The notes under the pieces were generated by a model that saw only the letters and a list, made by a program, of their open reading frames with translations, did no database searches and was not told the origin of the DNA. A DNA stretch of 64,000 bases from Squalus acanthias (taxonomy: Eukaryota). A program made the position numbers and the translations under genes. Below are positions 3 to 54,503 of the stretch, piece by piece (the stretch's first letter is position 1; the number at the start of each line of letters is the position of its first letter). The stretch is from contig CM059432.1 in NCBI GenBank assembly GCA_030390025.1, positions 78,184,001 through 78,248,000 of the forward strand, read 5' to 3'.

Positions 3-794
3 CTCCTCGCCGGGTCGGGCGTCCTGGGGACTGGGGCGGGCGAGGCCAAAGAGGCTGAAGCCGAGCCCGCCTTTTATAACCCAGATATCTCCCAGGGACT
101 GCTCGACCTGGTGGAGGAGTGTAGCAATCCCCAGCCCGCTGGGTCGGAGGTTGGTGGCGGGGAGACGGAAAGCCCCCTGACTCCGTCTCTGTTGTTGGCG
201 CCGGACGTGCTGGAGGAATTTGGGATTATTTTCTCCCCGGTTTCTCCGGTCGCTCCGGCGCCTGAGGCGGGGGGGGGCCCCGAACCGCCGCCGCCGCCTC
301 CCGGCCCGGCGCCCCTGAAGGAGCCCAGGGTGGACTCCTCTGCCACCGATCCTGGGGGTGGGATCGTGACGGAGGCGGGGCCGGCCGGTGCGGCCGAGCC
401 GTTCGCTGCACCCTGTGTGACGGACGGGTTGGCCGCCGGTGACGACCTCCCGGAGGAGGACGGGGACTCGGTGGGGGGCATCGAGGACGATTTGGAGTCC
501 ATCGGCAGCGAGGTGATGGACGCCCTCGTGCCCTTCACCGACTCTCCCCTCATCCCCGTAGGGGAACTCCGGGATTTTATGGCCGTGAGCCAGGGTCGTC
601 ACAAGAAGATCCGGCTGGCCCTCGACAAGTGGTCGGAGCTGGCGCTGCTCGTCGTGTCCGTCCGCGCCGCCGTTAAAATCATGGGCGCGGACAAGGACGT
701 TGGCCGGCTCGAGCTGCGTCGGCTCAAGACGTTCCACACTGGGCTGCTGAGGGAGTGGCGGTCGTCAGTGACCGCGCTCCCTCCCCTCCGTTAG
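3..794 (+). CDS. Tx1 ORF1, C-terminal acidic/Pro-rich part (5'-partial)
   Basis: Open frame homologous to the ORF1 C-termini of copies B and C, ending ...ALPPLR*. Confidence 0.85.
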   Translation, partial: LLAGSGVLGTGAGEAKEAEAEPAFYNPDISQGLLDLVEECSNPQPAGSEVGGGETESPLTPSLLLAPDVLEEFGIIFSPVSPVAPAPEAGGGPEPPPPPPGPAPLKEPRVDSSATDPGGGIVTEAGPAGAAEPFAAPCVTDGLAAGDDLPEEDGDSVGGIEDDLESIGSEVMDALVPFTDSPLIPVGELRDFMAVSQGRHKKIRLALDKWSELALLVVSVRAAVKIMGADKDVGRLELRRLKTFHTGLLREWRSSVTALPPLR

Positions 795-819
795 GTAGAG
801 GTTGCACTATGCTTCTGAG

Positions 820-2893
820 ATGAAGATAACCATAGCCAGCCTCAACATCAACGGCAGCAGGGAGGCGCGCCGTAGATTCAATAACTTCTCGGTCCTTCGG
901 GACGGGAAATATGCGGTGTGCTTCCTGCAAGAAACCCACACCGTTCCGGGAGACGAGGCCACGTGGCTCCTGGAGTGGCAAGGAGGGGTCAGCATGAGTC
1001 ACCTCTCCAACAATTCCTGCGGGGTGGCTGTCTTGCTGGCCCCGCATTTTCAGCCGGAGATCTTGAGGGTCAAGGAGCACGTGCCGGGCCGCTTGCTCCA
1101 GGTCACTGTTCGCCTGGGAGGCGTGCCGCTCCATTTAGTGAACGTGTACGCCCCCCGGACCGGTGCGCAGCAAGTGCGCTTCTTCGGAGAAGTGTCCGCT
1201 CTTCTGGGCTCCATCGACGTGGGCGAGTGCGTCATCCTCGGGGGGGATTTCAATTGTACCCTCGAGGCGCGGGACCGGTCGGGTCCCCCGCGAAGCCCGG
1301 CGGCGATGGAGAAGTTGCGGGACCTGGTCGGGTCCTTCGACTTGGTGGACGTCTGGCGAAATCTCCATCCCGACTCCAGCGCCTTCACGAGCGTGAGGTC
1401 TGGAGGAGGAAGGTCCAGAATCGACCGCCTTTACATTTCCCGGGCGTACGTCTCCTGCGTTCCGGCGGCTTCCATGCGGCCGGTGCCGTGCACGGACCAC
1501 CACCTGGTGTGGGCGGAGCTCGCTCCGCTGCGCGCGCGGGGGGGGTCCGCGTACTGGCATTTTAACAACCTGCTGCTGGAGGACGCGCGGTTCCGGGATT
1601 CGTTTCGCCGGTTCTGGGCCGACTGGAGAAGGAAGCGGGGAGGCTTCCCCTCCTTGAGGCTATGGTGGGACGTGGGCAAGGCTCACGTCCGCGTCTTCTG
1701 TCAGGAGTACGCGAAGGGGTCGACCAAGAGGCGGGAGGCCCGGGTCGGGCGATTGGAGAAAGAAGTGCTCGACCTGGAGTCCCGTCTCGGTCAAGTCGTC
1801 GAGGACCCGGCCCTGCGGAAGGTGTACGAAGAGAAGAAGGGCGCGCTGAAGGACCTGCAGCTGGTCGGGTCCCGAGGCGCGTACGTGAGGTCGCGGATCC
1901 AGTTCCTGCGGGACCTGGACCGCGGCTCCCCCTTCTTCTACTCGCTGGAAAAAAGACGAGGGGTCCGTAAGCAGCTCTTGGGGCTGCTGGCCGACGACGG
2001 ATCTCTGGTCTCGGATCCGGAGGGGATCAGCGCGGGGACCCGGGCCTATTACGGGGCTCTGTTCTCTCCGGATCCGTCCAGCGAGGATGCGCGCAGAGTT
2101 TTGTGGGAGGACCTGCCGAAGGTCGGCCCGGAGGGCGCCGAAGAATTTGACGCTCCGCTAAGTTTGGCGGAGCTGACCGGCGCCCTGCGCCAGCTCTCGA
2201 GGGGAAAGTCCCCGGGGCTGGACGGGCTGACCGTGGAGTTCCACAGGGCGTTCTGGGACGTCTTGGGGGGCGACTACGCGTGGGTCCTGGGGGAAAGTCT
2301 GGCGACCGGGGAGATGCCCCTCTCTTGGCGCAGGGCGGTTATCGTCCTGCTGCCCAAGAGGGGTGATCTCCGCCTTTTAAAAAACTGGCGCCCGGTCTCC
2401 CTCCTCAGCACGGACTACAAAATTTTTGCCAGGGCCATGTCTGCCCGCCTCGGCACCGTGCTGGCCCACATGATCCACCCCGACCAGTCCTACACGGTCC
2501 CGGGCCGGACAATCCACGACAACATCCATCTGGTCCGGGACCTGGTCCACCTTTCCCAGAGGACTGGTCTGTCGGTCGCCTTCCTTTCCCTGGATCAGGA
2601 GAAGGCGTTCGACAGGGTGGATCACGAGTATCTCTTCGGGACTCTGCGCGCATTCGGGTTCGGGACGCATTTCGTCGCCCGGATCCGACTTCTGTCCGCC
2701 GCCGCGGAGTGTCTGATTAAAGTTAACGGGTCTTTGACGGCGCCCCTTCGCTTCGGGAGGGGGGTGCGTCAGGGATGCCCCATGTCCGGTCAGTTATACG
2801 CCGTTTGCGTGGAGCCTTTCCTGCGCCTCTTGCGGAAGAGGTTGACGGGACTGGCTCTGCAAGGGCCGGGCGTGGAGGTCGTCCTCTCGGCTT
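820..2893 (+). CDS. Tx1 ORF2 (APE endonuclease + reverse transcriptase), 3'-partial
   Basis: SLNING, LQETH, GGDFN, SRIDR and TDHH endonuclease motifs; PGLDG, NWRPVSLL, LDQEKAFD and QGCPMS RT motifs; stops at the gap just before YADD. Confidence 0.95.
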
Positions 2894-2903
2894 NNNNNNN
2901 NNN
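2894..2903. other. Assembly gap (10 N)
   Basis: Run of N. Confidence 1.
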
Positions 2904-4979
2904 GTAAGCCGAGAGGACGACCTCCACGCCCGGCCCTTGCAGAGCCAGTCCCGTCAACCTCTTCCGCAAGAGGCGCAGGAAAGGCTCCACGCAAACGGCG
3001 TATAACTGACCGGACATGGGGCATCCCTGACGCACCCCCCTCCCGAAGCGAAGGGGCGCCGTCAAAGACCCGTTAACTTTAATCAGACACTCCGCGGCGG
3101 CGGACAGAAGTCGGATCCGGGCGACGAAATGCGTCCCGAACCCGAATGCGCGCAGAGTCCCGAAGAGATACTCGTGATCCACCCTGTCGAACGCCTTCTC
3201 CTGATCCAGGGAAAGGAAGGCGACCGACAGACCAGTCCTCTGGGAAAGGTGGACCAGGTCCCGGACCAGATGGATGTTGTCGTGGATTGTCCGGCCCGGG
3301 ACCGTGTAGGACTGGTCGGGGTGGATCATGTGGGCCAGCACGGTGCCGAGGCGGGCAGACATGGCCCTGGCAAAAATTTTGTAGTCCGTGCTGAGGAGGG
3401 AGACCGGGCGCCAGTTTTTTAAAAGGCGGAGATCACCCCTCTTGGGCAGCAGGACGATAACCGCCCTGCGCCAAGAGAGGGGCATCTCCCCGGTCGCCAG
3501 ACTTTCCCCCAGGACCCACGCGTAGTCGCCCCCCAAGACGTCCCAGAACGCCCTGTGGAACTCCACGGTCAGCCCGTCCAGCCCCGGGGACTTTCCCCTC
3601 GAGAGCTGGCGCAGGGCGCCGGTCAGCTCCGCCAAACTTAGCGGAGCGTCAAATTCTTCGGCGCCCTCCGGGCCGACCTTCGGCAGGTCCTCCCACAAAA
3701 CTCTGCGCGCATCCTCGCTGGACGGATCCGGAGAGAACAGAGCCCCGTAATAGGCCCGGGTCCCCGCGCTGATCCCCTCCGGATCCGAGACCAGAGATCC
3801 GTCGTCGGCCAGCAGCCCCAAGAGCTGCTTACGGACCCCTCGTCTTTTTTCCAGCGAGTAGAAGAAGGGGGAGCCGCGGTCCAGGTCCCGCAGGAACTGG
3901 ATCCGCGACCTCACGTACGCGCATCGGGACCCTACCAGCTGCAGGTCCTTCAGCGCGCCCTTCTTCTCTTCGTACACCTTCCGCAGGGCCGGGTCTTCGA
4001 CGACCTGACCGAGACGGGACTCCAGGTAGAGCACTTCTTTCTCCAATCGCCCGACCCGGGCCTCCCGCCTCTTGGTCGACCCCTTCGCGTACTCCTGACA
4101 GAAGAGACGGACGTGAGCCTTGCCCACGTCCCACCATAGCCTCAAGGAGGGGAAGCCCCCCTGCTTCCTTCTCCAGTCGGCCCAGAACCGGCGAAACGAA
4201 TCCCGGAACCGCACGTCCTCCAGCAGCAGGTTGTTAAAATGCCAGTACACGGACCCCCCCGGCGCCTGCAACGGAGCGAGCTCCGCCCACACCAGGTGGT
4301 GGTCCGTGCACGGCACCGGCCGCATGGAAGCCGCCGGAACACAGGAGACGTACGCCTGGGAAATATAAAGGCGGTCGATTCTGGACCTTCCTCCTCCAGA
4401 CCCCACCCAAGTGAAGGCGCTGGAGTCGGGATGGAGATTTCGCCAGACGTCCACCAAGTCGAAGGACCCGACCAGGTCCCTCAACTTCACCGTCGCCGTC
4501 AGGCTTCGCGGAGGGCCCGAACGGTCCCTCGCCTCGAGGGTACAATTAAAATCCCCCCCGAGGATGATGCACTCGCCGACGTCGACGGTGCCCAGAAGAG
4601 CGGACACTTCATCGAAGAAGCGCACTTGCTGCGCACCGGGCTGGGGGGCGTACACGTTCACTAAATGGAGCAGCACACCCCCCAGATGAACAGTGACCTG
4701 GAGCAAGCGGCCCGGCACATGCTCCTTGACCCCCAAGATCTCCGGCTGAAAATGCGGGGCCAGCAAGATAGCCACCCCACCGGAAACGTTGGAGAGGTGA
4801 CTCATGCTGACCCCTCCTCGCCACTCCAGGAGCCACGTGGCCTCGTCTCCCGGAACGGTGTGAGTTTCCTGCAGGAAGCACACTGCATGCCTCCCTTCCC
4901 GAAGGGACGAGAAGTTATTAAATCTATGGCGTGCCTCTCTGCTGCCGTTGATGTTGAGGCTGGCTATGGTTATCTTCAT
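2904..4979 (-). CDS. Tx1 ORF2 (APE + RT), 3'-partial
   Basis: MKITIASLNING...LSAY with the same motifs as copies A and C. Confidence 0.95.
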
Positions 4980-5010
4980 GACAAGAGCATAGTGCAACCT
5001 CTACCTTACT

Positions 5011-7098
5011 CTAACGGGAGGAGGGAGCGCGGCCGCTAGTCGACCGCCACTCCCTTCCAAGCCCAGCGAGGAAATTCTGGATCCGACGCCGCTCGGCCAG
5101 GCCCACGCCCCCGTCCGCGCCCATGGTTTTGACTGCGGCGCGGACGGAGCAAACGAGCAGCGCCAGATCCGACCATTTATCGATGGCCAGCTGGATTATA
5201 TCCTGGCGACCCTGGCCCATGGCCACAAAGTCCCGGAGTTCCACAACGGGGATGAGGGGGGACCCGGAGGAGGGCACGAGGGCATCCGCCGCCTCACTGG
5301 CGACGGATTCCATATCATCCTCAGTGTCCTCCGCCGGGTCCTCGTCCTCCGGGGGGTCGCCATCGGCCAGCCCTACCTCTGCCCCGATCCCACCCCCAGG
5401 ATCGGCAGCAGAGGAGTCCTCCCTGGGCTCCTCCAGAGGCGCCGGGTCAGGAAGCGGCGGCGGCTCGGGGCCCCCCTCCGCCCCCGGCACCGGGGTGCAC
5501 AGGGAAACCGGGGAGCACATTAGTGCCAGTTCCCTCAACAACCCCGGCGCCAGCGTCGCAGACGGAGTCAGGGGGCCTTCCCCTTCACCGCCACCATCCT
5601 CCGACCCAGCGGACCGGGTACCCTGGTTATATTGCTCAACCAGGTCGAGCAGTGCCTGGGAGTGGTCCTGACCGTACACGGCGGGCTCTGCCTCATCGGC
5701 CTCGCCCGCCCCGGTCCCCAGGATGCCCGACCTGGCGAGAAACAACGGATCAGCGTAACTCCCCACATCGGGTAGTTCCGCGGCCCCCCCCATGAGCAGG
5801 GCCTCTCCCCCATCCCCGGGAGGCACAGGCTGGACAGACTCATCTGTCATGCCCTCCCGGGGGACAGGCGACCCCTGCTGGATGTCGGTGATGGTGTCGG
5901 TGGGGGGGGGGGGCGCAGCACCCGCGGCGGGCAACGACTCCCCTTGCGAGGGGGGACCCCGTTCCTCGCGGTCCTCCCCCTCATCCAGGATGTCGCGCCT
6001 CCTTTTCGAAGAGGAGGGACACGAAGGTTGGGAGACCTCCATGCATACCGAGGCCTCCACCTCCGCTCCCCCCTGTCGATCGGTCTGCTCGGGGGTCCCG
6101 GGCCCGGTCACGGCCGCAGGTCTCGATTTTGCCGCCTTGGCGGATGCGGCCGCAGGCCCGGGCACAAGGCCCCTCGCATTCTCGAACTACGCCGCCACCC
6201 GCGCAAGGTATAGGGGCGTAAGCTCGGGTAAGTCATTATGTATGTCAAGGGGACCCGCCTGAAGGTGTTTGCTTTTCCTCCGCGCCTTCCTTCCAATCGG
6301 ACGCTCCCCCTCCCCTTCGCCGGAGGCCGCGACGGCGTTGACCTCCGGCGTCGACCGCGCATCGGGTGTCGCAGACGCGCGGACAGAAACAGGGGGAGGA
6401 GCGGCGGCGGCGCCAGCCTTGGCCGCCTCAGTTGCTTTGGCGGCCTTGGAGGCGGGGCAGTTCTTTCTTATGTGCCCCACCTCCTTACAGGCGTGGCACC
6501 GCACACCGTCCGACGTCCAGAAGACGCGGTAGGCGGTCCCCTCGTGTGTTATGCTAAATGCGCCTTCCGTGTCTTCCTCCCGCGCCAGCTGGATAAACAG
6601 CTGGCGCCGGAAGGAGAAGACATGCCGGAGGCTGGCCTCCCTGCAGCCGAGCGGGATCGGATTAATCCCCGACCTCACCTCCCCCAGTTGACGTAGGTGG
6701 GGGAGGAGGAGCTCAACCGGAACAAAGGGCGGGACATTCGATAGTATGAGTCGCTGCTCGGTGGCCTCGAGCGGATCCACCGGCAGGAAGGTCCCGCCCA
6801 CGGTGAGCCCCTCGGTGACGGCCAGGGACACCGCCCGCTCCGACCGCAGGAAGAACACAGCCTTACCGTACATTTTAGAGGCCGCAACGATGGCTGAGGG
6901 GCCGACTACCCCAGCCATGGCTTTGACGCAAGCCTCTATGGTCATGTTGGGGTGAGTGTAGCTCTTCACCCCCAGCTTTTTTGTCAATAGCCTGAAAGGC
7001 GACGGGGCAGCAGAAGCAGCGGGACCAGCTGTGGCCGTGGCTGCCACACCCGCGTACAACCTTGCTTGCCCCGCCGCCGGCGAAGATGTGCTCGCCAT
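5011..7098 (-). pseudogene. Tx1 ORF1 (RRM-like region + CCHC zinc knuckle + acidic tail) with one in-frame TAG at 6187-6189
   Basis: MASTSS start and CHACKEVGHIRKNC knuckle; ORF-track pieces 6187..7272 and 5011..6165 are in the same frame. Confidence 0.9.
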
Positions 7099-8131
7099 AC
7101 TGAGGTGGTATAAAGGGCTACACCCACCCCAAGTCACAGGCCGGGTGATGTTTAAGTGGCCTTGGTTTTTTTTGTCTTTTCCCCCGAGCAGAGGGGGTTG
7201 TTTTGAGAAAAAGAAGGCACACCTCTCCCTTTTATGATTGGAATTGGGAGTGGCCTTCTCCCCTCTGCTCAATTGGGTAATAAATAAGGTTTGAGGTGCC
7301 TCGTTAGAGAGAGGCAGAGAGAGAGAGAGAGGGGGTGGGAAGGAGGAAGGAGGAAGGGGGAAGGCCGCACGGGCCTGTTCGCCACTCAGGATAGTGGGTG
7401 GGTGGGTGCTTCCTGGGGGGGTGGGTGCTTCCTGGGGGGGGGGGGCACTCTTTGATGATAAATAAAGTCTTTGTTGATGTTCTTCTGGTGGGGGGAGAAG
7501 ATGTCTTCACCTGGGAAAAAATAAAGCTGGAGATGCCCAGGCTCAGTCCACAACCAGGTCTTAACAATGTTCTAAAATGTGAAGCAATAGGCAAGGGGTG
7601 CCTGTTGATGGTGTGTGTGGCCGAGTTGTTAGCAAGAGCCACACACACTCCCCTTGCTATCCCGGTCTTCTTCTCCTTTCCTCCCCCCACCTCAAATACA
7701 AAGTCTTTTGGAGAGTGCCCTTTTTAACACCCACCTCTCGATGTTGTTTTCCTTCTCGATGGCTCGCTCTCCCTCCTTCCAAGCAGATGTTGGTCTTGTT
7801 CTCCCCTCTCTCGTAATGGAGACCAGTTGGGGAGGCAGTGATGGAAAGGCTTCCCTCTGTTGTTGCTGGTCTCCTCTCTCTCCTCTCCTCTCCTCTCTCA
7901 CCTCAGCAGCAGTCGTGGTTGTAGCTGTAGCTGCAGGCGTGGTGGAGGTGGAAAGGTCTCCACTCTGTCCTTCGTGGCTCCTTCTCCTTCTAGGCACAGA
8001 GAAAAGAGACCTCTCCTTTCCCCTCCTCTTCTCAGCAAACGGCGCTCACCCGTTCACGCAGCACCGAATTGAGCTGAGTCCCTCGCAGCCTCAGCCTCTG
8101 CCTCAGTCTGTCCTCGCCTGGGACCGCACTC

Positions 8132-10849: not shown

Positions 10850-13800
10850 ATGAAGATAACCATAGCCAGCCTCAACATCAACGGCAGCAGGGAGGCGCGC
10901 CGTAGATTCAATAACTTCTCGGTCCTTCGGGACGGGAAATATGCGGTGTGCTTCCTGCAAGAAACCCACACCGTTCCGGGAGACGAGGCCACGTGGCTCC
11001 TGGAGTGGCAAGGAGGGGTCAGCAGGAGTCACCTCTCCAACAATTCCTGCGGGGTGGCTGTCTTGCTGGCCCCGCATTTTCAGCCGGAGATCTTGAGGGT
11101 CAAGGAGCACGTGCCGGGCCGCTTGCTCCAGGTCACTGTTCGCCTGGGAGGCGTGCCGCTCCATTTAGTGAACGTGTACGCCCCCCGGACCGGTGCGCAG
11201 CAAGTGCGCTTCTTCGGAGAAGTGTCCGCTCTTCTGGGCTCCATCGACGTGGGTGACTGCGTCATCCTCGGGGGGGATTTCAATTGTACCCTCGAGGCGC
11301 GGGACCGGTCGGGTCCCCCGCGAAGCCCGGCGGCGATGGAGAAGTTGCGGGACCTGGTCGGGTCCTTCGACTTGGTGGACGTCTGGCGAAATCTCCATCC
11401 CGACTCCAGCGCCTTCACGAGCGTGAGGTCTGGAGGAGGAAGGTCCAGAATCGACCGCCTTTACATTTCCCGGGCGTACGTCTCCTGCGTTCCGGCGGCT
11501 TCCATGCGGCCGGTGCCGTGCACGGACCACCACCTGGTGTGGGCGGAGCTCGCTCCGCTGCGCGCGCGGGGGGGGTCCGCGTACTGGCATTTTAACAACC
11601 TGCTGCTGGAAGACGCGCGGTTCCGGGATTCGTTTCGCCGGTTCTGGGCCGACTGGAGAAGGAAGCGGGGAGGCTTCCCCTCCTTGAGGCTATGGTGGGA
11701 CGTGGGCAAGGCTCACGTCCGCGTCTTCTGTCAGGAGTACGCGAAGGGGTCGACCAAGAGGCGGGAGGCCCGGGTCGGGCGATTGGAGAAAGAAGTGCTC
11801 GACCTGGAGTCCCGTCTCGGTCAAGTCGTCGAGGACCCGGCCCTGCGGAAGGTGTACGAAGAGAAGAAGGGCGCGCTGAAGGACCTGCAGCTGGTCGGGT
11901 CCCTGGGCGCGTACGTGAGGTCGCGGATCCAGTTCCTGCGGGACCTGGACCGCGGCTCCCCCTTCTTCTACTCGCTGGAAAAAAGACGGAGGGTCCGTAA
12001 GCAGCTCTTGGGGCTGCTGGCCGACGACGGATCTCTGGTCTCGGATCCGGAGGGCATCAGCGCGGAGGCCCGGGCCTATTACGGGGCTCTGTTCTCTTCG
12101 GATCCGTCCAGCGAGGATGCGCGCAGAGTTTTGTGGGAGGACCTGCCGAAGGTCGGCCCGGAGGGCGCCGAGAATTTAGAAGCTCCGCTAAGCCTGGCGG
12201 AGCTGACCGGCGCCCTGCGCCAGCTCTCGAGGGGCAAGTCCCCGGGGCTGGACGGGCTGACCGTGGAGTTCCACAGGGCGTTCTGGGACGTCTTGGGGGA
12301 CGACTACGCGCGGGTCCTGGGGGAAGGTCTGGCGACCGGGGAGATGCCCCTCTCTTGGCGCAGGGCAGTCATCGTCCTGCTGCCCAAGAAGGGCGATCTC
12401 CGCCTACTTAAGAACTGGCGCCCGGTCTCCCTCCTCAGCACGGACTACAAAATTTTCGCCAGGGCTATGTCTGCTCGCCTTGGCACCGTGCTGGCCCACA
12501 TGATCCACCCCGACCAGTCCTACACGGTCCCGGGCCGGACAATCCACGACAACATCCATCTGGTCCGGGACCTGGTCCACCATTCCCAGAGGGCTGGTCT
12601 GTCGGTCGCCTTCCTTTCCCTAGATCAGGAGAAGGCGTTCGACAGGGTGGATCACGAGTATCTTTTCGGGACTCTGCGCGCATTCGGGTTCGGGACGCAT
12701 TTCGTCGCCCGGATCCGACTTCTGTACGCCGCCGCGGAGTGTCTGATTAAAGTTAACGGGTCTTTGACGGCGCCCCTTCGCTTCGGGAGGGGGGTGCGTC
12801 AGGGATGCCCCATGTCCGGTCAGTTATACGCCGTTTGCGTGGAGCCTTTCCTGCGCCTCTTGCGGAAGAGGTTGACGGGACTGGCTCTGCAAGGGCCGGG
12901 CGTGGAGGTCGTCCTCTCGGCTTACGCCGATGACGTGCTCCTCGCGGTCACGGATCCCGTCGACTTGCGGAGGATGCGAGAATGCCAGCAGATTTACTCG
13001 GACGCATCGTCCGCCAAGATCAACTGGGAGAAATGTTCTGGACTCCTGGTGGGCCCATGGCAGGTGGACTCCCTGCCGGAGGAGTTCGGGCCTTTCGCCT
13101 GGAGCACCACGCACCTCCTCTACCTGGGAGTCTACCTCAGCCCGGCCGAGGACGCCTGGCCGGCGAACTGGCAAGAACTGGAGGCCAAAGTCACCGCTCG
13201 CCTAGGGCGCTGGACAGGACTGCTCCGAGTGTTGTCCTACAGGGGTCGAGCGCTGGTCATAAACCAGCTGGTGGCCGCCATGTTGTGGTACCGGTTGGTC
13301 ACTTTGATCCCTCCCCCTGCGTTTGTCGCCAAGATGCAGAAGAAGCTCGTCGACTTCTTCTGGGACAAAAGGAAGCACTGGGTCTCTGCCGCGGTTTTGA
13401 GTCTCCCGCTTAGGGAGGGCGGTCAGGCGCTGGTGTGCCTTCGCACCCAGGCGGCGACTTTCCGTCTTCAGACGCTGCAGAGATACCTGTACGTGGAGAA
13501 TCCTCCTAGGTGGCGTGCGCTGGCGACGCATTTCTTCCGCCAGCTGCACGGCCTCAATTACGACACGCAGCTCCTGTTTGTGAGAGTGGGTGGCACGCGT
13601 GCCAGCCTGCGGGAGCTGCCTGTCTTCTACCAGGAACTGCTATGGGTTTGGAACAGCGTCGCCTCCGAGCGCAGTTCTCCCCCGTCAGGAGCGGCGGCCG
13701 TCCTTCGGGAGCCGCTGTTCAGGAATCCGCACCTCCACGACCGCGGGTTCGGCTGGCTGGCGGAGGGCAGGGCTGTGCCCGGTAAGGTGACCAGAGTCGG

Positions 13801-14749
13801 GGACCTGCTCGATGGCGGAGGAGCGGGCTGGATGGCGCCGGAGGAGTTGGCGAGGCGCATGTCCTGGGTCAACGTCCGGCTCGCGGTCAAAGCCATCGAG
13901 TCGCTAAAAGTGGCACTGGGCCCCGTCTCCACTAGGTGTGTCGAGGAGGCTCAAGCACGTGGGGCGATCCCGTCCGAACTGACCCCCGTTCGGACGGAAT
14001 TCCTTATCGGCGCCCGGCCCCGAATCCTCCCTCGGGAGCCGCCGCCTCACCACTTGAGCCTTCTCGGAGAAATGCCCTCCGTGCCCTTTCAATCCGCACG
14101 GAGGCGTTTCCTGTACGGGCTGCTCCTGCACACTCTCCACTTTGCCATCTTCGTCTGCCGTCCGGACACGCCTTGGCGTACCATCCTGCCGTCCGGCGGA
14201 GGCGAAGGTCCCCATTGGAAGGCTCTCTACGCGGGAGTCTTCCCTTGTTCTATTGGGGACTTGGCCTGGAGGGTGTTGCACGGAGCAGTCCCGTGCAATA
14301 GGATTTTAAATAGGTTTACGGACTCCCAGGCTGCTTGCCATTTCTGCGGCCTGGAGGAGTCCGTCTATCACATTTATATTGAATGTGAGAGGTTGCAGCC
14401 CCTCTTTCATTATTTGAAGGGGCTGCTCCTCAATTTCTGGTTGCACTTCAGCCCCACGCTCCTGATCTACGGTCACCCGGTGCGGAGGGGAGCAGGTAGG
14501 TCGGAGGACCTCCTCGTAGGACTGCTCCTGGGCCTGGCCAAGAAAGCCATTAATTGGTCCAGGCAGCGGGCGGTCGAGGGGGTCGTTCGGCCCGATTGCC
14601 TGCCTCTCTTCCGCGGCCATGTTCGCGCCCGGGTGGCCCTGGAGATGGAGCACGCGGTGTCCGCCGGCACGCTTGAGTTTTTCCGCGACCGGTGGGCGCC
14701 GCGGGGACTGGAGTGCATCGTCACCCCGGACTTTCAAATTTTAATTTGA
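10850..14749 (+). CDS. Tx1 ORF2, intact (1299 aa): APE endonuclease, RT (YADD), C-terminal zinc finger
   Basis: Uninterrupted ORF; endonuclease and RT motifs; CHFC-x-H-x4-C near the C-terminus. Confidence 0.97.
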   Translation: MKITIASLNINGSREARRRFNNFSVLRDGKYAVCFLQETHTVPGDEATWLLEWQGGVSRSHLSNNSCGVAVLLAPHFQPEILRVKEHVPGRLLQVTVRLGGVPLHLVNVYAPRTGAQQVRFFGEVSALLGSIDVGDCVILGGDFNCTLEARDRSGPPRSPAAMEKLRDLVGSFDLVDVWRNLHPDSSAFTSVRSGGGRSRIDRLYISRAYVSCVPAASMRPVPCTDHHLVWAELAPLRARGGSAYWHFNNLLLEDARFRDSFRRFWADWRRKRGGFPSLRLWWDVGKAHVRVFCQEYAKGSTKRREARVGRLEKEVLDLESRLGQVVEDPALRKVYEEKKGALKDLQLVGSLGAYVRSRIQFLRDLDRGSPFFYSLEKRRRVRKQLLGLLADDGSLVSDPEGISAEARAYYGALFSSDPSSEDARRVLWEDLPKVGPEGAENLEAPLSLAELTGALRQLSRGKSPGLDGLTVEFHRAFWDVLGDDYARVLGEGLATGEMPLSWRRAVIVLLPKKGDLRLLKNWRPVSLLSTDYKIFARAMSARLGTVLAHMIHPDQSYTVPGRTIHDNIHLVRDLVHHSQRAGLSVAFLSLDQEKAFDRVDHEYLFGTLRAFGFGTHFVARIRLLYAAAECLIKVNGSLTAPLRFGRGVRQGCPMSGQLYAVCVEPFLRLLRKRLTGLALQGPGVEVVLSAYADDVLLAVTDPVDLRRMRECQQIYSDASSAKINWEKCSGLLVGPWQVDSLPEEFGPFAWSTTHLLYLGVYLSPAEDAWPANWQELEAKVTARLGRWTGLLRVLSYRGRALVINQLVAAMLWYRLVTLIPPPAFVAKMQKKLVDFFWDKRKHWVSAAVLSLPLREGGQALVCLRTQAATFRLQTLQRYLYVENPPRWRALATHFFRQLHGLNYDTQLLFVRVGGTRASLRELPVFYQELLWVWNSVASERSSPPSGAAAVLREPLFRNPHLHDRGFGWLAEGRAVPGKVTRVGDLLDGGGAGWMAPEELARRMSWVNVRLAVKAIESLKVALGPVSTRCVEEAQARGAIPSELTPVRTEFLIGARPRILPREPPPHHLSLLGEMPSVPFQSARRRFLYGLLLHTLHFAIFVCRPDTPWRTILPSGGGEGPHWKALYAGVFPCSIGDLAWRVLHGAVPCNRILNRFTDSQAACHFCGLEESVYHIYIECERLQPLFHYLKGLLLNFWLHFSPTLLIYGHPVRRGAGRSEDLLVGLLLGLAKKAINWSRQRAVEGVVRPDCLPLFRGHVRARVALEMEHAVSAGTLEFFRDRWAPRGLECIVTPDFQILI

Positions 14750-14853
14750 TTTATTAAGTTTCATTTAAAGTTTTAATTGATTTACAGTAAATTTGGGTTC
14801 TGTTCAACCAAAAAGAGGAACACCAGGTTATAGTCCAACAGTTTTATTTAAAA

Positions 14854-14891
14854 TTACGAGCTTTCGGAGCTGCTGCCCCTTCGTCAGGTAA
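14854..14891 (-). ncRNA. Minimal hammerhead ribozyme motif (mirror copy)
   Basis: Exact reverse complement of 14900-14937. Confidence 0.75.
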
Positions 14892-14899
14892 AGGTACCT

Positions 14900-14937
14900 T
14901 TACCTGACGAAGGGGCAGCAGCTCCGAAAGCTCGTAA
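14900..14937 (+). ncRNA. Minimal type I hammerhead ribozyme motif
   Basis: Stem I UUAC/GUAA; CUGACGA at 14904-14910; stem II GGGGC-AGCA-GCUCC; GAAA at 14926-14929; stem III reduced to palindromic AGCU; putative cleavage after UC at 14933. Confidence 0.75.
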
Positions 14938-15085
14938 TTTTAAATGAAACTGTTGGACTATAACCTGGTGTTGTGCGACTTCTCATTTTTTTCACTCCTC
15001 TAAGGGCAGCCCAATTTCTGGCAAGGGTCTTTAAATGGGCATTAGGCCCCTCATTAGCATATGCAAGGCACCCAATGCCTGTTTT

Positions 15086-15276
15086 TCTCTTTTGAGCAAC
15101 CCATAAACAAATAGACTGTAACTAAACTTAAAACATTAAATGAAACTTAACAAATTAAATTAAATTTTGTCAGGGGTGATGATGCACTCCTGTCCCTGCA
15201 GTGCCCACCGGTCGCGGAAGGCCTCGAACGTACCGGCGGACACCGCGTGCTCCATCTCCAGGGCCACCCGGGCGCG
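15086..15276 (-). mobile_element. 5'-truncated Tx1 copy (ORF2 end + 3' UTR)
   Basis: Matches the ORF2 end RARVALEMEHAVSAG; flanked by 15-bp TSD CCCAATGCCTGTTTT at 15071-15085 and 15277-15291. Confidence 0.92.
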
Positions 15277-17179
15277 CCCAATGCCTGTTTTAGCTAGCCA
15301 GCCACCCCGGACGCCTGAAAAATGGCCTGACCCAATTTCAGGTAGAAGATTGACCTAAATTGGTCCTTACAACGAGGACCAATTTTTACCCCATCATTTC
15401 CACCTGCTGAATGTTATTGTCTGATTGAAAGTTTTCAGCAACAGTTTCAAAAGGAACCAATAGGGAATTGATTAATGAAAATTCAATTTTAAAGTCACTG
15501 AGGTTAAAAGACAATTTAGTGGTCAAGGACAATTTGTTGGCATATGACCATATATGCTAAAGGTTTCCAGTAAGCCTACCTTTCTAGGTATGCAGTGATC
15601 ACTTCTCAAATGTGTTTTACTATGTTTATTGAAGTATTTATAAATGCACAAATGGGACAGATGCTCACTTTGAAAGAAACCCTATCTGATGAAAGAAAGT
15701 CACATGTAAAGTTGGTCGCAATCTGGTATTGTGGATTTATTAAGGTTAATGGTTAGTGTTTGTATATGGATGAACAGATAACTGGATGGCTAGCTGACTG
15801 CCTTACTCTCAATAAGAGGAAGTCAGGAAACTGTCAGAATATGTTAAGGAGGGACTCTGTTAAAAATTAAACTGTTAAAAAAACTGATTATCTTTTCTCA
15901 GTTTGTTACCTGTTGCTTAGGGTAACCAACGGCTACAGTCTGAAACACTGAGTAACAGACAATGAAAGGCAAGTCATAACGTTTACTTGATTTTGGAGCC
16001 AGACTTTCCAAACACGCCAACGTAAAAAACCTCAAAAAAAGGCTGACTATCCTTAAAAGCCGATAACTCGAAAAACAACATACAAGTAATAAAATAGAAT
16101 AAAGAGCTATGACCAAGGCCACTGCTTCAAGGAGACTGAATAAATTCCTTATTACATTGGGTTTCAGGATTTTTATTTGTGTTTTATGATCATATTCTGA
16201 AATTTAGTTTGTTTTTCTTCGTAAACTGAAACCCAATGGCCTCACGTATGGTATTCAAAAATAAACTCCCCTTGACGTGAGAGGGTGCAGGCACTAGAAC
16301 TGTCCATGGCCCCCTTCACCAGAAAATGGCAGGACAGAAGAAAGGAAGATGGCCACTCTGAAGGCATCAGAAGACCAAGCTGCAAGGAAGGAGGCAACGG
16401 CATTGGCCAATGCAATCTGTCAGGTCTGCTGGACATAGGCGCAGTTGAGAAATAAGTTCAATGGCATAGAGATAAACGTAGGCCCCTTTGTATACATCAC
16501 TACTATTCCCCAATGCTCAGAGAAATTATCTACCAGGCTAGCATACAACATTTTTCCTTTTTTGCAAAAGACCTTCATTCAACAGAAGTTTCATGCCATA
16601 TTGTCAGAGGGGTCAATAGTTCCGATACACAGAGCTCTTCAGAGATCACCCACCAGAGTCATGCCAGAAAAACCACTATGTGAACTCGTGGGAGTAGCCA
16701 GTGGCTGGGAGGGAAGTGCTTAGGGCTGTTTCATCTGGTCTGCCAAATGCCAACATCTTAATAAGTGCACTCTGCTTACAGGACAAGGCTGCCCACTGTC
16801 ATTGTGTGAGAATCAAGACTGAAGGAGATCCATTACTAATTAACCAGCTTACCACATTTCTAAATGATGGCACTCACCTTATCTGGCCATGAAACCTTGG
16901 AAGGTAGTGGTGAAGGCAAGTTTGCAGTGTGGTGCCACTATTCAGCAAGTATCCTCCATTTGCTATGATCTTTCATATTGAAAGTCCTTTTGGGAATCCT
17001 GATAACACAGGCTACAGTTTCTAATTTGTCACATAACGCATTAAAGTTGTATGATCTTACTAATCTTGGAAGCCACTGTATTTTTGCTCTTTTCCTGTAG
17101 GTTTTGCCCTCAATGAAAAGGCATGGGGAAGTAGCAGCTCGATCTCAAGAACTTCACAGCATGTACTCCACCTGCCATA

Positions 17180-35130: not shown

Positions 35131-38100
35131 AGAGTCATAGAGTCATAACGGCACAGAAGGCGGCCATTCGGCCTATCGAGTGCGTGCCGGCTCTCTGTGA
35201 AGCGATCCAGTCAGTCCCATTCCCCCGCTCTATCCCCATAGCCCTGCAAGTTTATTTCCCTCAAGTGCCTATTATCCAGTCTCCCCTTGAAAACATTGAG
35301 TGTCTCCACTTCCACCACTTCCGTCGGCAGCGAATTCCAGGTCATCACCACTCACTGCGTTAAGTTTTTCCTCACACCCCCCCCTGTATCTCTTGCCCAA
35401 AACCTTAAATCTGTGTCCCCTAGTCCTTGTACCATCAATTAGTGGGAACAGACTTTCCCCGACTAGCCTATGCAAACCCGTCATAATCTTGTACACCTCT
35501 ATCAAATCACCCCTCAACCTCCTTTGCTCTAATGAACACAAATCCAGCTTCTCCAACCTGTCCTTGTAGCTAAGATCCCCCTCCTCAGAACCATTCTGGT
35601 AAATCTCTTCTGCACCCTCTCGAGGGCCTTCACATCCTTCCGAAAGTGTGGTGACGAGAACTGGATGCAATACTCCAGTTGTGGCCTAACCAGCGCTTTA
35701 TAAAGGTTCAGCATATGCTTTGCTAACCACTCTGTCAATATGTCCTGCCACCTTCAGGGACCTATGCACATTAACTCCCAGGTCCCTCTGTCCCTGCACA
35801 CTCTTTAAAACTGTGCCATTAAGTGTATATTGCCTCTCCCTCTTCCTTCTGCCAAAATACATCACCTCACACTTCTCTATATTAAATTCCATCTGCCACT
35901 TGTCTGCCCATTCAACTAGCCTTTCTCTGTCCTGTTGCAGTTGATTGGTATCAGCCTCACTGTTTGCCACACCCTCAAGTTTGCTGTCATCGGCAAATTT
36001 AGAAATTCTACTCTATTCCAATATCCAGGTCATTTATACATATAAAAAAAAGCAGTGGCCCCAGCACTGACCCATGGGAAACACCACTGTCTACCATCCT
36101 CCAGTCTGAAAAATAGCCATTTACTACAACTCGCTGTTTTCTGTCCTTAAGCCAATTCCTTATCCAAGCTGCCACTGACCCACCTATTCCATGAGCCTCA
36201 ATTTTGTTAACCAGCCTTCTATGTGGTACTTTGTCAAACACCTTCCGAAAATCCATGTAGACAACATCCATTGCATTCCCTTCATCAATTCTCTCTGTTA
36301 CTTCATCAAAAAATTCAATTAGATTAGTCAAAAACACGATCTGCCTTTTACAAATCCGTGTCGGCGCTCCTTAATTAGCTTAAACCTCTCCAAGTGCCCG
36401 TTAATTTTTTCCTTGATTATTGTTTCTAAAACTTTGCCCGCCACTGATGTTAAACTGACCGGCCTGTAGTTACTAGGATTGTCCTTACACCCTTGAACAA
36501 TGGTGTCACATTTGCCACATTCCATTCTTCAGGCACCTCCCTCGCATCTAGGGAAAGTTGGAAAATTATGGCAAGCCCTTCCGCTATCTCCTCCCCCAAT
36601 TCCCTTCGCAACCTGGGATGCTAGCCATCTGGACCAGGCGACTTATCCACTCTAAGCATACCCAGTCTTTCTAGTACAACCTGTCTATTAATTTTCACTC
36701 CTTCTATTTCTTCTACCTTTTCCACTTCTACCGATATTTTGTCAGCATCCACCTCCTTGGTAAACACCGATACAAAGTACTCATTGAGTATTCTCGCCTT
36801 GCCCTGCGCCTCTAAGCATATATCACCTTCTTTGTCCCTAATAGGCCCCACCCCGCCTCTTACTACCCGCTTACTGTTTACATGGCTGTAGAAGATTTTT
36901 GGGTTCCCTTTTATGTTAACCGCCATTCTACTCTCATATTCTCTCTTTGCCAATCTTATTTTCATCTTCACTTCCCCTCTCAACTTATTGTATTTGGTCT
37001 GGTTCTCCCTTGAAGAATTCACCTGACATTCATCATAGACCCTCTTTTTTTGTTTCATCATCTTCTCTATCTCCCTCATCATCCAAGGCGCCCTTGCTTT
37101 GGTTCCCTTACCCTTCCCTCTTGTTGAAATGTACCTAGCTTGTACTTGGAACATCTCCTCCTTAAAGATCACCCATTGTTCTGTTACAGTTTTTCCTGTC
37201 AGTCTTTGGTTCCATTTTACTCTGGCTAGATCCTTTCACATCCCATTGAAGTTAGCCCTATTCCAGTTTAGAAGTTCCACTCTAGATTGTTCCTTGCTCC
37301 TCTCGATTGCTAATCTAAATCTTATGATACGATGATCACCCGTACCCAAGTGTTCTCCCACAGACACTTTGGGGGCGATTTTGTCAATGGGGGTGCGTTG
37401 GAGGCGGGACTGCTGCTCGTCGGTTTTAGTCCCACCTCCATCGACTTGTGGCCAACCCACGCTATTTTCCCTTGATTGACCTTGTTAAGCCCGCCCAGCG
37501 GACTTAGCAGACAAATTAAGGGAAAGCCGGTGACAGAGAACGTCAGCGTATGACATTTCATCTGTCAAAAATTTTTGACCGATGAATTGTCATCGTTTGA
37601 CAGCTCTATGATGCTGCCAAACACAGACATTCTATGTTGATTGATGAGTCCTTGTATTCAAGACTCATCAAACCTCTTTTGTGAGCAGAAATTAGATGGT
37701 TGTTGCATTGGAGAATGCAGCAGCCATCTGTCATCTCTGCCGGTGAGATGCGAGACTCTCCGCATCCCCAACTGTTGAAGCCTGCAGGAAGAAACAAAGG
37801 TAAGGAAACATTTTCTATCACTTTCCACTCACCTCACATACTTACCTCTCTACACTTGCACCCATCACTCACCTTCACAGCGCACTTTTGCACCGCTCCG
37901 ACCCCCGCAGACCCACTGCTCGCCTTGGTGACCCTGGCGGGGTTTCCCAATGTTGGGAAGCCCGCGCCTCTGTTGGAAAAATAGGGATAATCCTCTTAAC
38001 TGCCTGTTAACTACCTGTTAACAGGCAGTTAAGTGGCTGTAATCCCCTTCCCGCTACCCACCTCCTGGGAAGATGGCACGGAGGCGGGTTTGGGGCGGGA

Positions 38101-49341: not shown

Positions 49342-52284
49342 GGTGATGGTAATGCCGTTGAATGTCAAGGGCGGTGGTTAGACGCTCTCTTGTTGGAGAT
49401 AGTCATTGCCTGGCACTTGTGTGGTGCGAATGTTACTTGCCACTTATCAGCCCAAGCCTGAATGTCGTCCAGGTCTTGCTGCATGTGGGCATAGACTGCT
49501 TCATTATCTGAAGAGTTGTGAATGGAACTTAACACTGTGCAATCATCAGCGAACATCCTCACTTCTGACCTTATGATGGAGGGAAGGTCATTCATGAAGC
49601 CGCTGAAGATGGTTGGGCCTAGGACACTGCTCTGAGGAACTCCTGCAGCGATGTCCTGGGGCTGAGATGATTGGCCTCCAACAACCACAACCACCTTCCT
49701 TTGTGCTAGGTATGACTCCTGCCAGTGGAGAGATTGTCCCTTGATTCCCATTGACTTCAATTTTACTATGGCTCCTTGATGCCACACTTGGTCAAATGCT
49801 GCCTTGATGTCAAGGGCAGTCACTCTTACCTCACCTCTGGAATTCAGCTCTTTTGTCCATGTTTGGACCAAGGCTGTAATGAGGTCTGGAGCCGAGTGGT
49901 CCTGGCGGAACCCAAACTGAGCATCGGTGAGCAGGTTATTCGTGAGTAAGTGCCGCTTGATAGCACTGTCGATAACACCTTCCATCACTTTGCTGATGAT
50001 TGAGAGTAGACTGATGGGGCGTTAATTGGCCGGATTGGATTTGTCCTGCTTTTTGTGGACAGAACATACCTGGGCAGTTTTCCACATTGTCTGGTAGATG
50101 CCAGTGTTGTAGCTGTACTGGAACAGCTTAGCTAGAGGTGCAGCTGGTTCTGGAGCACAAGTCTTCCGCACGACAGCCGGGATATTGTCAGGGCCCATAG
50201 CCTTTGCTGTATCCAGTGCACTCAGCCGTTTCTTGATATCACATGGAGTGAATCGAATTGGCTGAAGACTGACTACTTTGAATGTGGGTACCTCTAGGAG
50301 GAGGCTGAGATGGATCATCCACTCGGCACCTCTGGCTGAAGATGGTTGCAAACGCTTCAGCCTTGTCTTTTGCTGGATGGGGATGTTCATGGAGCCTCCT
50401 CCTCCTGTCAGTTGTTTAATGGTCCACCACCATTCACGACAGCTTTGATCTGATCCGTTGGTTGTGGAATCGCTTAGCTCTGTCTGTAGATTCTGCTTCA
50501 GTTGTTTAGCATGCATGTAGTCCTGTGTTGCAGCTTCCCCAGGTTTGCACCTCATTTTTAGGTACACCTGGTGCTGCTCCTGGCATACTGTTCTGCACTC
50601 CTCATTGAACTAGAGTTGATTGCCTGACTTGATGGTAATGGTAGAGTGAGGGATATGTCTGGCCATGAGGTTACAGATTGTGGTGGAATACAATTCTGCT
50701 GCTGATGGCCCACAGCACCTCATGGATGCCCAGTTTTGAGCTGCTAGATCTCTTCTGAATCTATCCCATTTAGCACGGTGGTAGTGGCACACAACACGAT
50801 GGAGGGTGTCCTCACTGTGACGACGGGACATCGTCTCCACAAGGACCGTGCGGTGGTCACTGCTACCAATGCTGTCATGGACAGATGCATCTGCGACAGG
50901 TAGATTGGTGAGGACGAGGTCAAGTAGGTTTTTCCCTTGTGTTGGTTCTCTCACCACCTGCTGCAGGCCCAGTCTGGCAGCTATGTCCTTCAGGACTCGG
51001 CCAGCTCAGAATACAAATCGGAAAGCAAAACAAACCAATTATGTATGCTTCAGCTGCTATCACATATGAATGAGACCAGCCAGGTTTGAGCAAATACAGT
51101 GCAAAGATGAGTACCTTTCCTCGAAAATTATTGCAATGGATGCTGTAACAAACAATGAGAAGGAAAAGACTTGAAAAATGACAAACAGATGCAATTTATC
51201 AGACTGTCAGACTGAGAGAAGACGCCAGAACTGTCAACCTTGTTAAGTAGCAAGATATGACACAGAGCGGCATCCTGTACTTAAAAATGTGATGGATGCT
51301 AATGACAGCAATGCTGCAGATGACTGCTAATTTTAATGAAAAATATATGCTACTACTTTTAGGTACTTGCAAATCAGTAGAAACTTATTGCAAAAAAACC
51401 CCATGGCAATAATATCCATGGAGAAAGGCAACAGATTCTATCATTTCACTTATGCTTATACCTTCTGTGGCTCTTAAAATGTTATTAAAAGATCTTGCAA
51501 CAGCTTTTGCTGTTACATAAATATTAAGATGTTAGATGTAAATAAAACTTCATATTGCTAATAGATCTTATTACCTTTCTGATGCTTCCTAATTGACATA
51601 ATTTATCTAATACCTTAAAATTATCTTTAATTGAGTTATCAAACAGAATTAATTGAGTTATATATAGGAACATGGGAAACATGACTTACATTGTAAAATG
51701 GAGTTTACTTAACTAATTAATACAATGAATTGCTAATGTGACACAGCTTTCAAAAGACTTGGGGACCTGCGTTGCTAGTGGAATACATGATTATCCACTC
51801 GGGAGCTCTGGGCACAACAGAAGGAACACTTCTTATAAATATTAATTTCCTTTTCTCTTCTATTGATTTTCTTTGTCACTGCCAGATGCTTTGAACACTT
51901 GATTATGAAACTTCTGACATTGATTTAGTGCAATTATATTCTTTTTTATAATGTTTTTCACTTTTTGGGATACGTTCCATCACACACACCTGCACTGATT
52001 TCCCTCCCATCCTCCGCCATCCCTATTAGGCAGGTGAGATGGTCTTGGTTGCAGAATTCTCCATGACTGTTGACATTGCCACAGTATCAATGGCCAGAGG
52101 GCATCATTCAAGCATGGACTGTTGGATATTTTCAATTTTTCTTCCCCAAGATGGAACTTAGTGTTTTTGCATGGTGCTCCATTCAATGGTCCAGACAACT
52201 GGCAAAACTCACCTGACTGAGCTGTACAACTTTAAAAAGTATTCTGATATGTACAGCCTCTGTGTACCTGCATTCGCATACATA

Positions 52285-53750: not shown

Positions 53751-54114
53751 GGTTCTCCGAATCGTGTATCAGGAGAAGCCCCAAGAAAGTTCTTGGCAAC
53801 AGTGTACAGGTTCACAGTTATGATTTTCCCAAATGTCGAGTTCCTATGGAGGGGGTCAAGTGGAGGTCAAGTTTTTCTCCACAGACAGAAAGGGAAAAAT
53901 CACTTGGGGCTACTTTCATACTTGCAACTAGCTTAAGAGCAACCAACTTGACACAAATCTGTGACCAGGTTGTCTACCTGTCCTCTTAGTGTGTGGTATT
54001 GGGAAAATGTGCAAAATTACAAAAAAAGATTTTGAATACTATAAACTGTTAAAATATGCACTGCTCAGCCAGTTTTTAGACATATTTAAATCTCTTACTT
54101 GTCACATTCCACAG

Positions 54115-54328
54115 AAAACTTGCTTTGAAACACCACCCAGACAAAAATCTTGATAACCCAGATGCGTCTGACAAATTCAAAGAGATCAACAATGCTCATT
54201 CAATATTGTCGGATATAACAAAACGAAACATTTATGACAAATATGGCTCCCTGGGTCTCTACGTAGCTGAACAGTTTGGTGAAGAGAATGTGAACACGTA
54301 CTTCATGCTGTCTAGCTGGTGGGCAAAG
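54115..54328 (+). CDS. DNAJC5B: Cysteine string protein coding exon 2 (J-domain with HPD motif and linker)
   Basis: [28 protein letters not shown]...[12 protein letters not shown] at 54113-54114; GT at 54329; 214 nt, phase-compatible with exon 1. Confidence 0.95.
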
Positions 54329-54503
54329 GTAACATTGGTTTTTCTTTTATCTGTTTTAGTGTACAGTAATATTTTGTGGTGCGATAAGTTACATAAAAGC
54401 TGCAGTCTGAAAATGTGCTTTCTACTGATACTTAGAGGATCAAAATCAGAAAGAGGGAATCTGAAATTTTCATAAGGATTTAGTACTATCAATGTAACAT
54501 GTT

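What the first reader, a model, noticed from the sequence alone, without database searches (positions are those of the whole stretch)
14819..14972. Spacer-less 154-bp palindrome carrying a minimal hammerhead ribozyme on each strand
Seen: 77-bp arms centred on GGT|ACC (14895/14896) with one mismatch. Each arm carries UUAC-CUGACGA-A-GGGGC(AGCA)GCUCC-GAAA-GC-UC-GUAA, so the core boxes and stems I and II are intact and stem III is reduced to palindromic AGCU. Known: Penelope-like elements carry such minimal hammerheads, which work as dimers, and often leave inverted terminal structures. Inference: any transcript crossing this site carries one sense ribozyme plus its antisense, so it can fold as a long dsRNA hairpin or, in trans-dimers, as an active ribozyme. 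It lies about 115 nt past the Tx1 3' end and could process Tx1 read-through RNA or yield siRNA.
Basis: partly seen in the sequence, partly recalled or inferred. Interest (0 to 1): 0.72.

Follow-up and report, generated by a model that had tools for sequence, protein, structure and literature searches.

The report
Penelope palindrome hit by Tx1 retrotransposon
This palindrome is one of many thousands of two-armed stubs left by a Penelope-type jumping gene, and its ribozyme motif is predicted to be locked inside a hairpin; the notable part is that a second jumping gene (Tx1 type) ends exactly at its left edge, at a spot where about four in five copies of that gene sit, likely because it aims there.

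Summary
In detail: 77-bp arms, one mismatch, a type-I minimal hammerhead on each strand with predicted cleavage after 14933, and stem-I covariation among copies. The parent is a Penelope-like element (RT + GIY-YIG ORF upstream of the same repeat). The stub is ordinary: 71,873 exact tail 28-mers occur in the genome, 52 of the first 100 lie in inverted pairs, and 90 loci share this exact centre. Inverted pLTRs with minimal hammerheads are published. The proposed function is not supported: in the full palindrome both ribozyme stems have about zero pairing probability, and only 2 of 84 arms end near the cleavage site. 947 of 1,140 Tx1 3' ends run into this Penelope site, against 0 of 30 for a sister subfamily, with a 14-bp duplication and a likely target-derived 5' head. 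I found no paper on a Penelope-targeting Tx1, but this scan reported it at least eight times on other DNA of this genome.

The parts
14819..14972 (.). Spacer-less palindrome: two head-to-head 5'-truncated copies of the terminal repeat (pLTR) of a Penelope-like element
   Evidence: family and parent ORF
14900..14937 (+). Type-I minimal hammerhead motif, predicted cleavage after 14933
   Evidence: anatomy; covariation among 49 distinct copies
14854..14891 (-). Mirror copy of the minimal hammerhead, predicted cleavage after 14858
   Evidence: L001 -
14894..14897 (.). Self-complementary 4-mer shared by both arms at the turn; present in the unfolded parent about 3 nt after an initiator-like motif
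   Evidence: (L002, L003); same 24-nt centre at 90 loci
14973..14993 (+). Unpaired rest of the right arm, ending at the short pLTR end; holds an intact, unused Tx1 target site at 14972|14973 on the minus strand
14819..14832 (+). 14-nt stretch that is duplicated as the target-site duplication in 5'-truncated Tx1 copies elsewhere; its first five bases also match the Tx1 3' terminus, so the junction is ambiguous by up to 5 nt
   Evidence: L040, L057; L099
8155..14818 (+). Tx1-clade non-LTR retrotransposon, 5'-truncated by about 400 nt, ORF1 split over frames, 3' end abutting the palindrome
10850..14749 (+). Tx1 ORF2 (APE endonuclease, RT, zinc-binding region), open for 1,299 codons, 50% identical to Xenopus laevis Tx1 ORF2
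14750..14818 (+). Tx1 3' UTR

Best explanation
The palindrome is a two-armed stub of a Penelope-like element's terminal repeat whose hammerhead motifs are predicted to be trapped in a 77-bp hairpin, and its left arm was likely cut short when a Tx1 retrotransposon inserted at a site that this Tx1 family likely targets. Step 1 (inferred, ~55% over fold-back): the Penelope enzyme nicked both target strands and primed a cDNA from each end, one from the far internal start (long tail) and one from the near one (short end). Both copied to about the 5' end of the RNA just upstream of the hammerhead, and the two cDNA 3' ends annealed at the self-complementary 4-mer. Step 2 (association shown, cause inferred, ~90%): the Tx1 endonuclease later nicked the left arm at its fixed site, with a 14-nt stagger, helped by a ~5-nt match between the Tx1 3' end and the target. 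Step 3 (inferred, ~75%): full-length Tx1 RNA starts with ~40 nt copied from this target, which would guide the 5' join and rebuild the site, giving head-to-tail arrays. The ribozyme here is a passenger.
For: Parent: L034 holds a 397-codon frame with RT thumb, a CX4CxxC linker and GIY-YIG-like motifs ending ~235 nt before the same hammerhead; 10 of its 47 listed homologues carry PF01541 beside RT-type families; L027 hits RVT_1. Ordinary layout: 71,873 exact tail 28-mers, reversed control 0; 26 tail-out pairs and 0 tail-in pairs among the first 100 hits; 15 of 15 other inverted loci have one long (64-66 nt) and one short (0-35 nt) end, and 13 of 15 share a flanking word of 9 nt or more; 90 loci have this exact centre. 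Of 84 arms taken in genome order, 14 end within -3..+5 of an initiator-like A and 1 in the 45 nt upstream of -15. Tx1: 947 of 1,140 3' ends continue into the site; 25 of 29 top-scoring other copies run into the Penelope tail, across several hammerhead subfamilies; sister subfamily 0 of 30; a 14-nt duplication that copies the target's own variant (L040); Penelope duplications enclose both elements (L088/L102, L077/L097); 27 of 30 5' ends carry the full target-like head, which differs from the copy's own 3' flank in 12 of 14 pairs and is within 2 changes of the family type in 13 of 14. Sequestration.
Against: The two arms of a locus have the same haplotype in 23 of 36 loci against 7% for random pairs: this fits fold-back or one reused RNA as well as two RNAs from one source. 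The 5'-end peak at the initiator is modest (14 of 84; 13 more stop inside the core), and initiator calls were heuristic, with one reference miscalled. The displaced outer part of the left arm and a Penelope duplication were not found for this locus: the Tx1 is 5'-truncated and an assembly gap lies at 2894-2903. Pfam found nothing in the L034 piece itself. 4 of 29 sampled Tx1 copies and 193 of 1,140 ends are not at the exact site. Some of the 14 head/flank pairs are array members, not clean single insertions. No enzyme or RNA test was possible.
Confidence: 0.8

Rival explanations
1. Fold-back: one Penelope cDNA self-primed at its 3' end and copied itself, making the second arm (self-priming as proposed for Adineta Penelope elements).
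For: Same haplotype in both arms at 23 of 36 loci, 76 of 77 nt here; PMC3846280 reads palindromes at inverted junctions as self-priming (passages); a shorter second arm is expected.
Against: The turn has no loop: the arms overlap in a 4-nt self-complementary word, which two strands can pair but one strand can hardly fold on (sequence; 90 loci). Solo arms also end at the short end (L002, L004, L006, L008). The purified anole enzyme cleaves and extends both strands from two internal starts (PMC11167929). At 5 of 36 loci the arms differ by variants common in the family, one of them a pattern artefact.
Confidence: 0.3
2. One reading: the hammerhead processes Tx1 read-through RNA, or the hairpin is a selected siRNA source.
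For: Core and stems are intact and covary; the predicted cut lies 115 nt after the Tx1 end; small RNAs from Penelope copies are reported in a rotifer (PMC3846280, passage).
Against: Stems have about zero pairing probability in context and the antisense arm is made first on either strand; trans pairing gives a full duplex; an intact sense core follows the Tx1 end in only 4 of 29 other loci; 2 of 84 arms end near the cut site; minimal hammerheads are inactive as monomers and weak as dimers (PMC4209133) or need protein (PMC11167929).
Confidence: 0.07
3. The Tx1 does not target Penelope; it carries the Penelope stub as a 3' transduction, or the two move as one composite.
For: Full-length copies do carry target-like sequence, at the 5' end; the 3' terminus shares ~5 nt with the site; arrays inflate the on-target count.
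Against: Tx1 ends 99% alike are followed by different Penelope subfamilies and lengths, up to ORF-bearing copies; the outer tail sits at the 5' side joined to unique flanks; Penelope duplications enclose both; both arms are hit at the same base in L044 and L056.
Confidence: 0.06
4. The palindrome is an assembly or library fold-back artefact.
For: An assembly gap with inverted Tx1 copies lies 12 kb upstream.
Against: The arms differ at one base and in length, the flanks are different, and the same layout recurs at thousands of loci with target duplications.
Confidence: 0.02

Closest known systems
Endonuclease-bearing Penelope-like elements with inverted pLTR, optional 30-40 nt tail and minimal hammerhead (PMC8557442, PMC3846280, PMC4209133); Neptune/Nematis-type by the CX2-5CxxC linker
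   Same: Inverted 5'-truncated copy, tail on one end only, target duplication, TATA plus initiator-like motif ~20 nt apart, minimal hammerhead with extra base after A9, G10.1-C11.1 and palindromic stem III
   Different: Here the whole insertion is only the two pLTR stubs, with a loop-less turn that recurs at 90 loci; clade not placed by a tree
Poseidon_Ac (PAc) of the green anole (PMC11167929)
   Same: Two internal reverse-transcription starts giving a long and a short end; both target strands extended; hammerhead dispensable for insertion
   Different: In PAc the ORF starts inside the hammerhead; here the candidate ATG lies at the tail end, and the element has the Neptune/Nematis-type linker
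Tx1L of Xenopus laevis (YTX2_XENLA), inserted in the DNA transposon Tx1D; crocodilian Tx1-Mar, Tx1-9_AMi, Tx1-8_Crp (PMC4494074, PMC1950540)
   Same: Tx1 clade (ORF2 50% identical over 1,299 aa), fixed site inside another transposon, tandem insertions around a duplication
   Different: Target is the pLTR tail of a Penelope-like retroelement next to its hammerhead; full-length copies likely carry ~40 nt of the target at their 5' end
Animal non-LTR retrozymes (bioRxiv 10.64898/2026.07.22.740005, passages)
   Same: Short Penelope-derived, hammerhead-bearing repeats
   Different: Retrozymes are head-to-tail tandem units; this is head-to-head and dispersed

Membership tests
Minimal type-I hammerhead (PLE min-HHR) | CUGANGA, GAAA and UH core in type-I order | tested here: met
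   60 of 84 arms taken in genome order keep it
Minimal type-I hammerhead (PLE min-HHR) | Stems I and II conserved as structure | tested here: met
   92.7% of cells paired, 0/500 shuffles as high; one stem-I pair C-G 19 / U-A 19; only one pair changes on both sides; rows were chosen by the core pattern
Minimal type-I hammerhead (PLE min-HHR) | Extra base after A9, G10.1-C11.1, palindromic stem III | tested here: met
   A14911, G14912-C14925, AGCU 14929-14932 (criteria from PMC4209133)
Minimal type-I hammerhead (PLE min-HHR) | Self-cleavage as a dimer or with protein | not testable with these tools
   folding predicts sequestration
Minimal type-I hammerhead (PLE min-HHR) | Match to an Rfam hammerhead model | tested here: not met
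   no hammerhead family at E<=1; minimal forms lack stem III, so this is weak
EN+ Penelope-like element | RT followed by C-terminal GIY-YIG endonuclease in the parent | tested here: met
   L034 frame read by eye, homologues with PF00078 and PF01541, RVT_1 in L027; no Pfam hit on the L034 piece; the name GIY-YIG for PF01541 is recalled
EN+ Penelope-like element | pLTR with hammerhead, inverted copies, optional tail, target duplication | tested here: met
   no duplication recoverable at this locus
Neptune clade | CX2-5CxxC linker (shared with Nematis) and RT tree position | tested here: inconclusive
   linker seen (criterion PMC8557442); no tree built
Tx1 clade | ORF1 with zinc knuckle, ORF2 with APE + RT, closest to Tx1L | tested here: met
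   no tree built
Target-specific Tx1 | More than 20% of flanks in one repeat (criterion of PMC4494074), at one base | tested here: met
   947 of 1,140; 25 of 29; sister 0 of 30
Target-specific Tx1 | Endonuclease nicks the site in vitro | not testable with these tools
   none
Non-LTR retrozyme | Head-to-tail tandem units with hammerheads | tested here: not met
   arms are inverted

The most novel reading that the evidence does not exclude
A young Tx1 family has become a parasite of a Penelope-like retroelement: it inserts at one base of the pLTR tail, has captured ~40 nt of that target plus the start of the hammerhead as its own 5' head, and rebuilds its site to stack in arrays; the stubs it lands in record two-ended Penelope priming, with both cDNAs running to the transcript's 5' end and joining at a 4-nt palindrome. 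The first target of this kind for Tx1 that I could find, and a genomic read-out of how inverted pLTRs form.
Probability: 0.5. Interest if true: 0.55.

Novelty: new member of a known kind. Interest (0 to 1): 0.36.

Why it matters
The palindrome and ribozyme as such are known features of Penelope-like elements and need no special function. What is useful is the pair. A Tx1 family with open ORF2s, over 1,100 3' ends, a fixed site with more than 70,000 intact copies, and a sister subfamily that lacks the preference is a ready system for asking how APE endonucleases and RNA-target homology set and change target choice. The recurrent loop-less turn and the long/short end asymmetry give testable predictions for the open question of how inverted pLTRs arise.

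Tried and rejected
Rfam scan: no hammerhead model; miRNA hits are hairpin artefacts. Expression: no RNA holder listed; all runs laid were contigs, which show no RNA ends or strand, so transcription, cleavage and siRNA stay untested. One contig of run X15 (organism G) spans the Tx1-Penelope junction, 14555-14863 with 11 differences; an X14 contig has only 26 nt on one side and is not counted; whether G is another species is unknown. Cleaved RNA as template: 2 of 84 arms end within about 3-4 nt of the cut site, no peak. Two unrelated RNA templates drawn from the whole family: rejected, arms match far above the random-pair rate. A ~54-nt target duplication for full-length Tx1: rejected, the head differs from the own 3' flank in 12 of 14 pairs (14 of 20 fetched pairs used, 2 duplicates and 4 without a 3' end dropped). 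A hammerhead built from the Tx1 5' head: no stem II-GAAA in the needed order, by eye. The A/G difference between arms at 14845/14946, seen in most palindromes: likely a result of ranking hits by a query that holds the rarer base, since loci found by the Tx1 end have A in both arms; not counted genome-wide. Left remainder of the arm and Penelope duplication for this locus: not found in the window or 20 kb upstream. Literature: searches found no Penelope-targeting Tx1; Repbase entries and subscription papers are not covered, and no supplements were opened (those of PMC4494074 list crocodilian Tx1 flanks).

Full report
Observation. The palindrome is real: arms 14819-14895 and 14896-14972, no spacer, one mismatch, folding z = -26. 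Each strand carries a type-I minimal hammerhead in its 3' arm; on + the core runs 14904-14933 with stems I (4 bp) and II (5 bp) and the AGCU remnant of stem III. Rfam has no matching hammerhead model. I took 104 copies of the repeat end from fetched loci; 68 kept the full core by pattern, giving 49 distinct sequences. On these, 92.7% of stem cells pair, above all 500 shuffles and all slid controls, with one stem-I pair switching between C-G (19) and U-A (19). The core is invariant there by construction; in 84 arms taken in genome order, 60 keep it.

What the arms are. The window lies in a 3.7-Gb genome, likely of a cartilaginous fish, judged from named homologues. Longer copies of the repeat lead upstream into an ORF with an RT thumb, a CX4CxxC linker and GIY-YIG-like motifs (L034). 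Its homologues carry RT families and, in 10 of 47, PF01541; L027 hits RVT_1 while the L034 piece has no Pfam hit. Downstream, copies stop either at a short end (as here, ~14993) or after a ~37-nt tail ending at an ATG. This is the pLTR and tail of an endonuclease-bearing Penelope-like element, Neptune/Nematis-type by the linker (PMC8557442, passages).

How ordinary. An exact 28-mer of the intact tail occurs 71,873 times. Among the first 100 hits, 26 pairs are tail-out inverted within 1 kb and none tail-in. The exact 24-nt centre of this palindrome occurs at 90 loci, this one included. In 15 of 15 other inverted loci one arm has the long and one the short end, and 13 of 15 have a shared flanking word of 9 nt or more. 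Inverted 5'-truncated copies, one-sided tails and palindromic junctions are described (PMC8557442; PMC3846280, passages), as are minimal hammerheads on opposite strands 100-700 bp apart (PMC4209133, parts 1-2 of 4).

How it likely formed. The parent has a TATA-like box about 20 nt before an initiator-like motif just upstream of the hammerhead, as noted for rotifer pLTRs. The turn here lies 3 nt after that initiator, in a self-complementary 4-mer shared by both arms. Of 84 arms, 14 end within -3..+5 of the initiator A, only 1 in the 45 nt upstream of -15, 13 inside the core, and 2 near the cleavage site. The purified anole enzyme cleaves and extends both strands, starts at two internal sites that define the tail, and does not need hammerhead cleavage (PMC11167929, parts 1-2 of 4). 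I therefore favour two cDNAs, one from each nicked end, running to near the RNA 5' end and annealing at the 4-mer; I took this reading up after seeing an earlier scan note (e1-8160173). Against it, the two arms share a haplotype in 23 of 36 loci against 7% for random pairs, which fits fold-back or a single source equally. I put it at about 55 to 30.

Is the ribozyme active here? In the full context both stems have pairing probability 0.0, forcing them costs ~70 kcal/mol, and even the right arm alone forms them only at 0.27-0.44. Two palindromic RNAs form a 154-bp duplex; for right arms alone the dimeric ribozyme (-17.5) is weaker than the best alternative (-24.9). No RNA data could test this.

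The Tx1 link. ORF2 at 10850-14749 is 50% identical to Xenopus Tx1 ORF2 over 1,299 aa and the element ends at 14818, touching the left arm. Using a query that held no Penelope sequence, 25 of 29 other 3' ends run straight into the same tail position, on several hammerhead subfamilies; the 4 others share only the first few bases (L041 and L042 are near-duplicates). Genome-wide, 947 of 1,140 ends continue with the exact next 9 bases (arrays count several times). With about 72,000 exact sites in 7.4 billion strand positions, chance is about 1 in 100,000 per insertion. A sister subfamily, whose fragment lies at ~15086-15273, has 0 of 30. Truncated copies show a 14-nt duplication, in L040 with the target's own variant on both sides. 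At 5' ends, 27 of 30 loci show the outer tail or an upstream Tx1, then the 14-mer, ~40 more target-like bases and the start of the sense hammerhead. That head differs from the copy's own 3' flank in 12 of 14 pairs and stays near the family type in 13 of 14, so it likely travels with the Tx1 RNA. Penelope duplications enclose both elements in two loci read by eye, so Penelope came first. Four more copies, 94-97% identical, lie within 20 kb upstream; the two whose 3' ends I could read stop at the same base, and one has both ORFs open.

Comparison with what is known. Tx1 families that aim at other transposons are known: Tx1L in Tx1D, Tx1-Mar, Tx1-9_AMi, and two in LTR elements (PMC4494074, passages and section 15; PMC1950540, passages; Kojima and Fujiwara 2004 seen only as cited there). 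My searches found no Penelope target; Repbase was not searchable and no supplements were opened. Retrozymes are tandem, not inverted (bioRxiv 10.64898/2026.07.22.740005, passages). This scan has already noted the Tx1-Penelope targeting at least eight times in this genome and such palindromes three times in other genomes; I had reached the targeting result before looking.

Verdict. The palindrome and its ribozyme motif are already-known Penelope features with no sign of a role at this locus. The adjoining Tx1 is a new member of the target-specific Tx1 kind with an apparently undescribed target. Interest 0.36.

Noticed in passing
window 15068-15291: 5'-truncated, inverted 3' fragment of a sister Tx1 subfamily (~15086-15273) with an 18-nt flanking repeat (15068-15085, 15274-15291); this subfamily's ends carry a short fixed terminus followed by unique DNA and do not sit in Penelope.
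   Followed up: partly
window 2894-2903: Assembly gap of 10 N between a + Tx1 copy and an inverted, 84%-identical Tx1 subfamily copy, both broken at nearly the same RT position; the 5.7-kb inverted repeat at 6-5739 spans this gap and may be partly an assembly effect.
   Followed up: partly
window 2904-8130: Minus-strand Tx1 of another subfamily with a different 5' UTR, joined through a G run to the truncated 5' end of the Tx1 studied; its target is unknown.
   Followed up: no
L031 and L032 (20 kb upstream of the window): Cluster of four further Tx1 copies: a minus-strand head-to-tail array of at least three and one + copy, set in two back-to-back Penelope tails 28 nt apart.
   Followed up: partly
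L044, L056: Penelope palindromes with Tx1 inserted at the same base in both arms.
   Followed up: no
L104, L019: Inverted loci whose two arms look like different hammerhead subfamilies; not read by the pattern.
   Followed up: no
window 14845/14946: The one mismatch falls in an AATAAA-like hexamer of the repeat (A in the left arm, G in the right); most palindromes found with the right arm as query show the same discordance, likely by ascertainment.
   Followed up: partly
window 37550-37593: Second, imperfect 44-nt palindrome, unrelated to the Penelope repeat.
   Followed up: no
window 52279-57869: Several decayed RT-bearing repeats in tandem (RVT_1 hits); family not determined.
   Followed up: no
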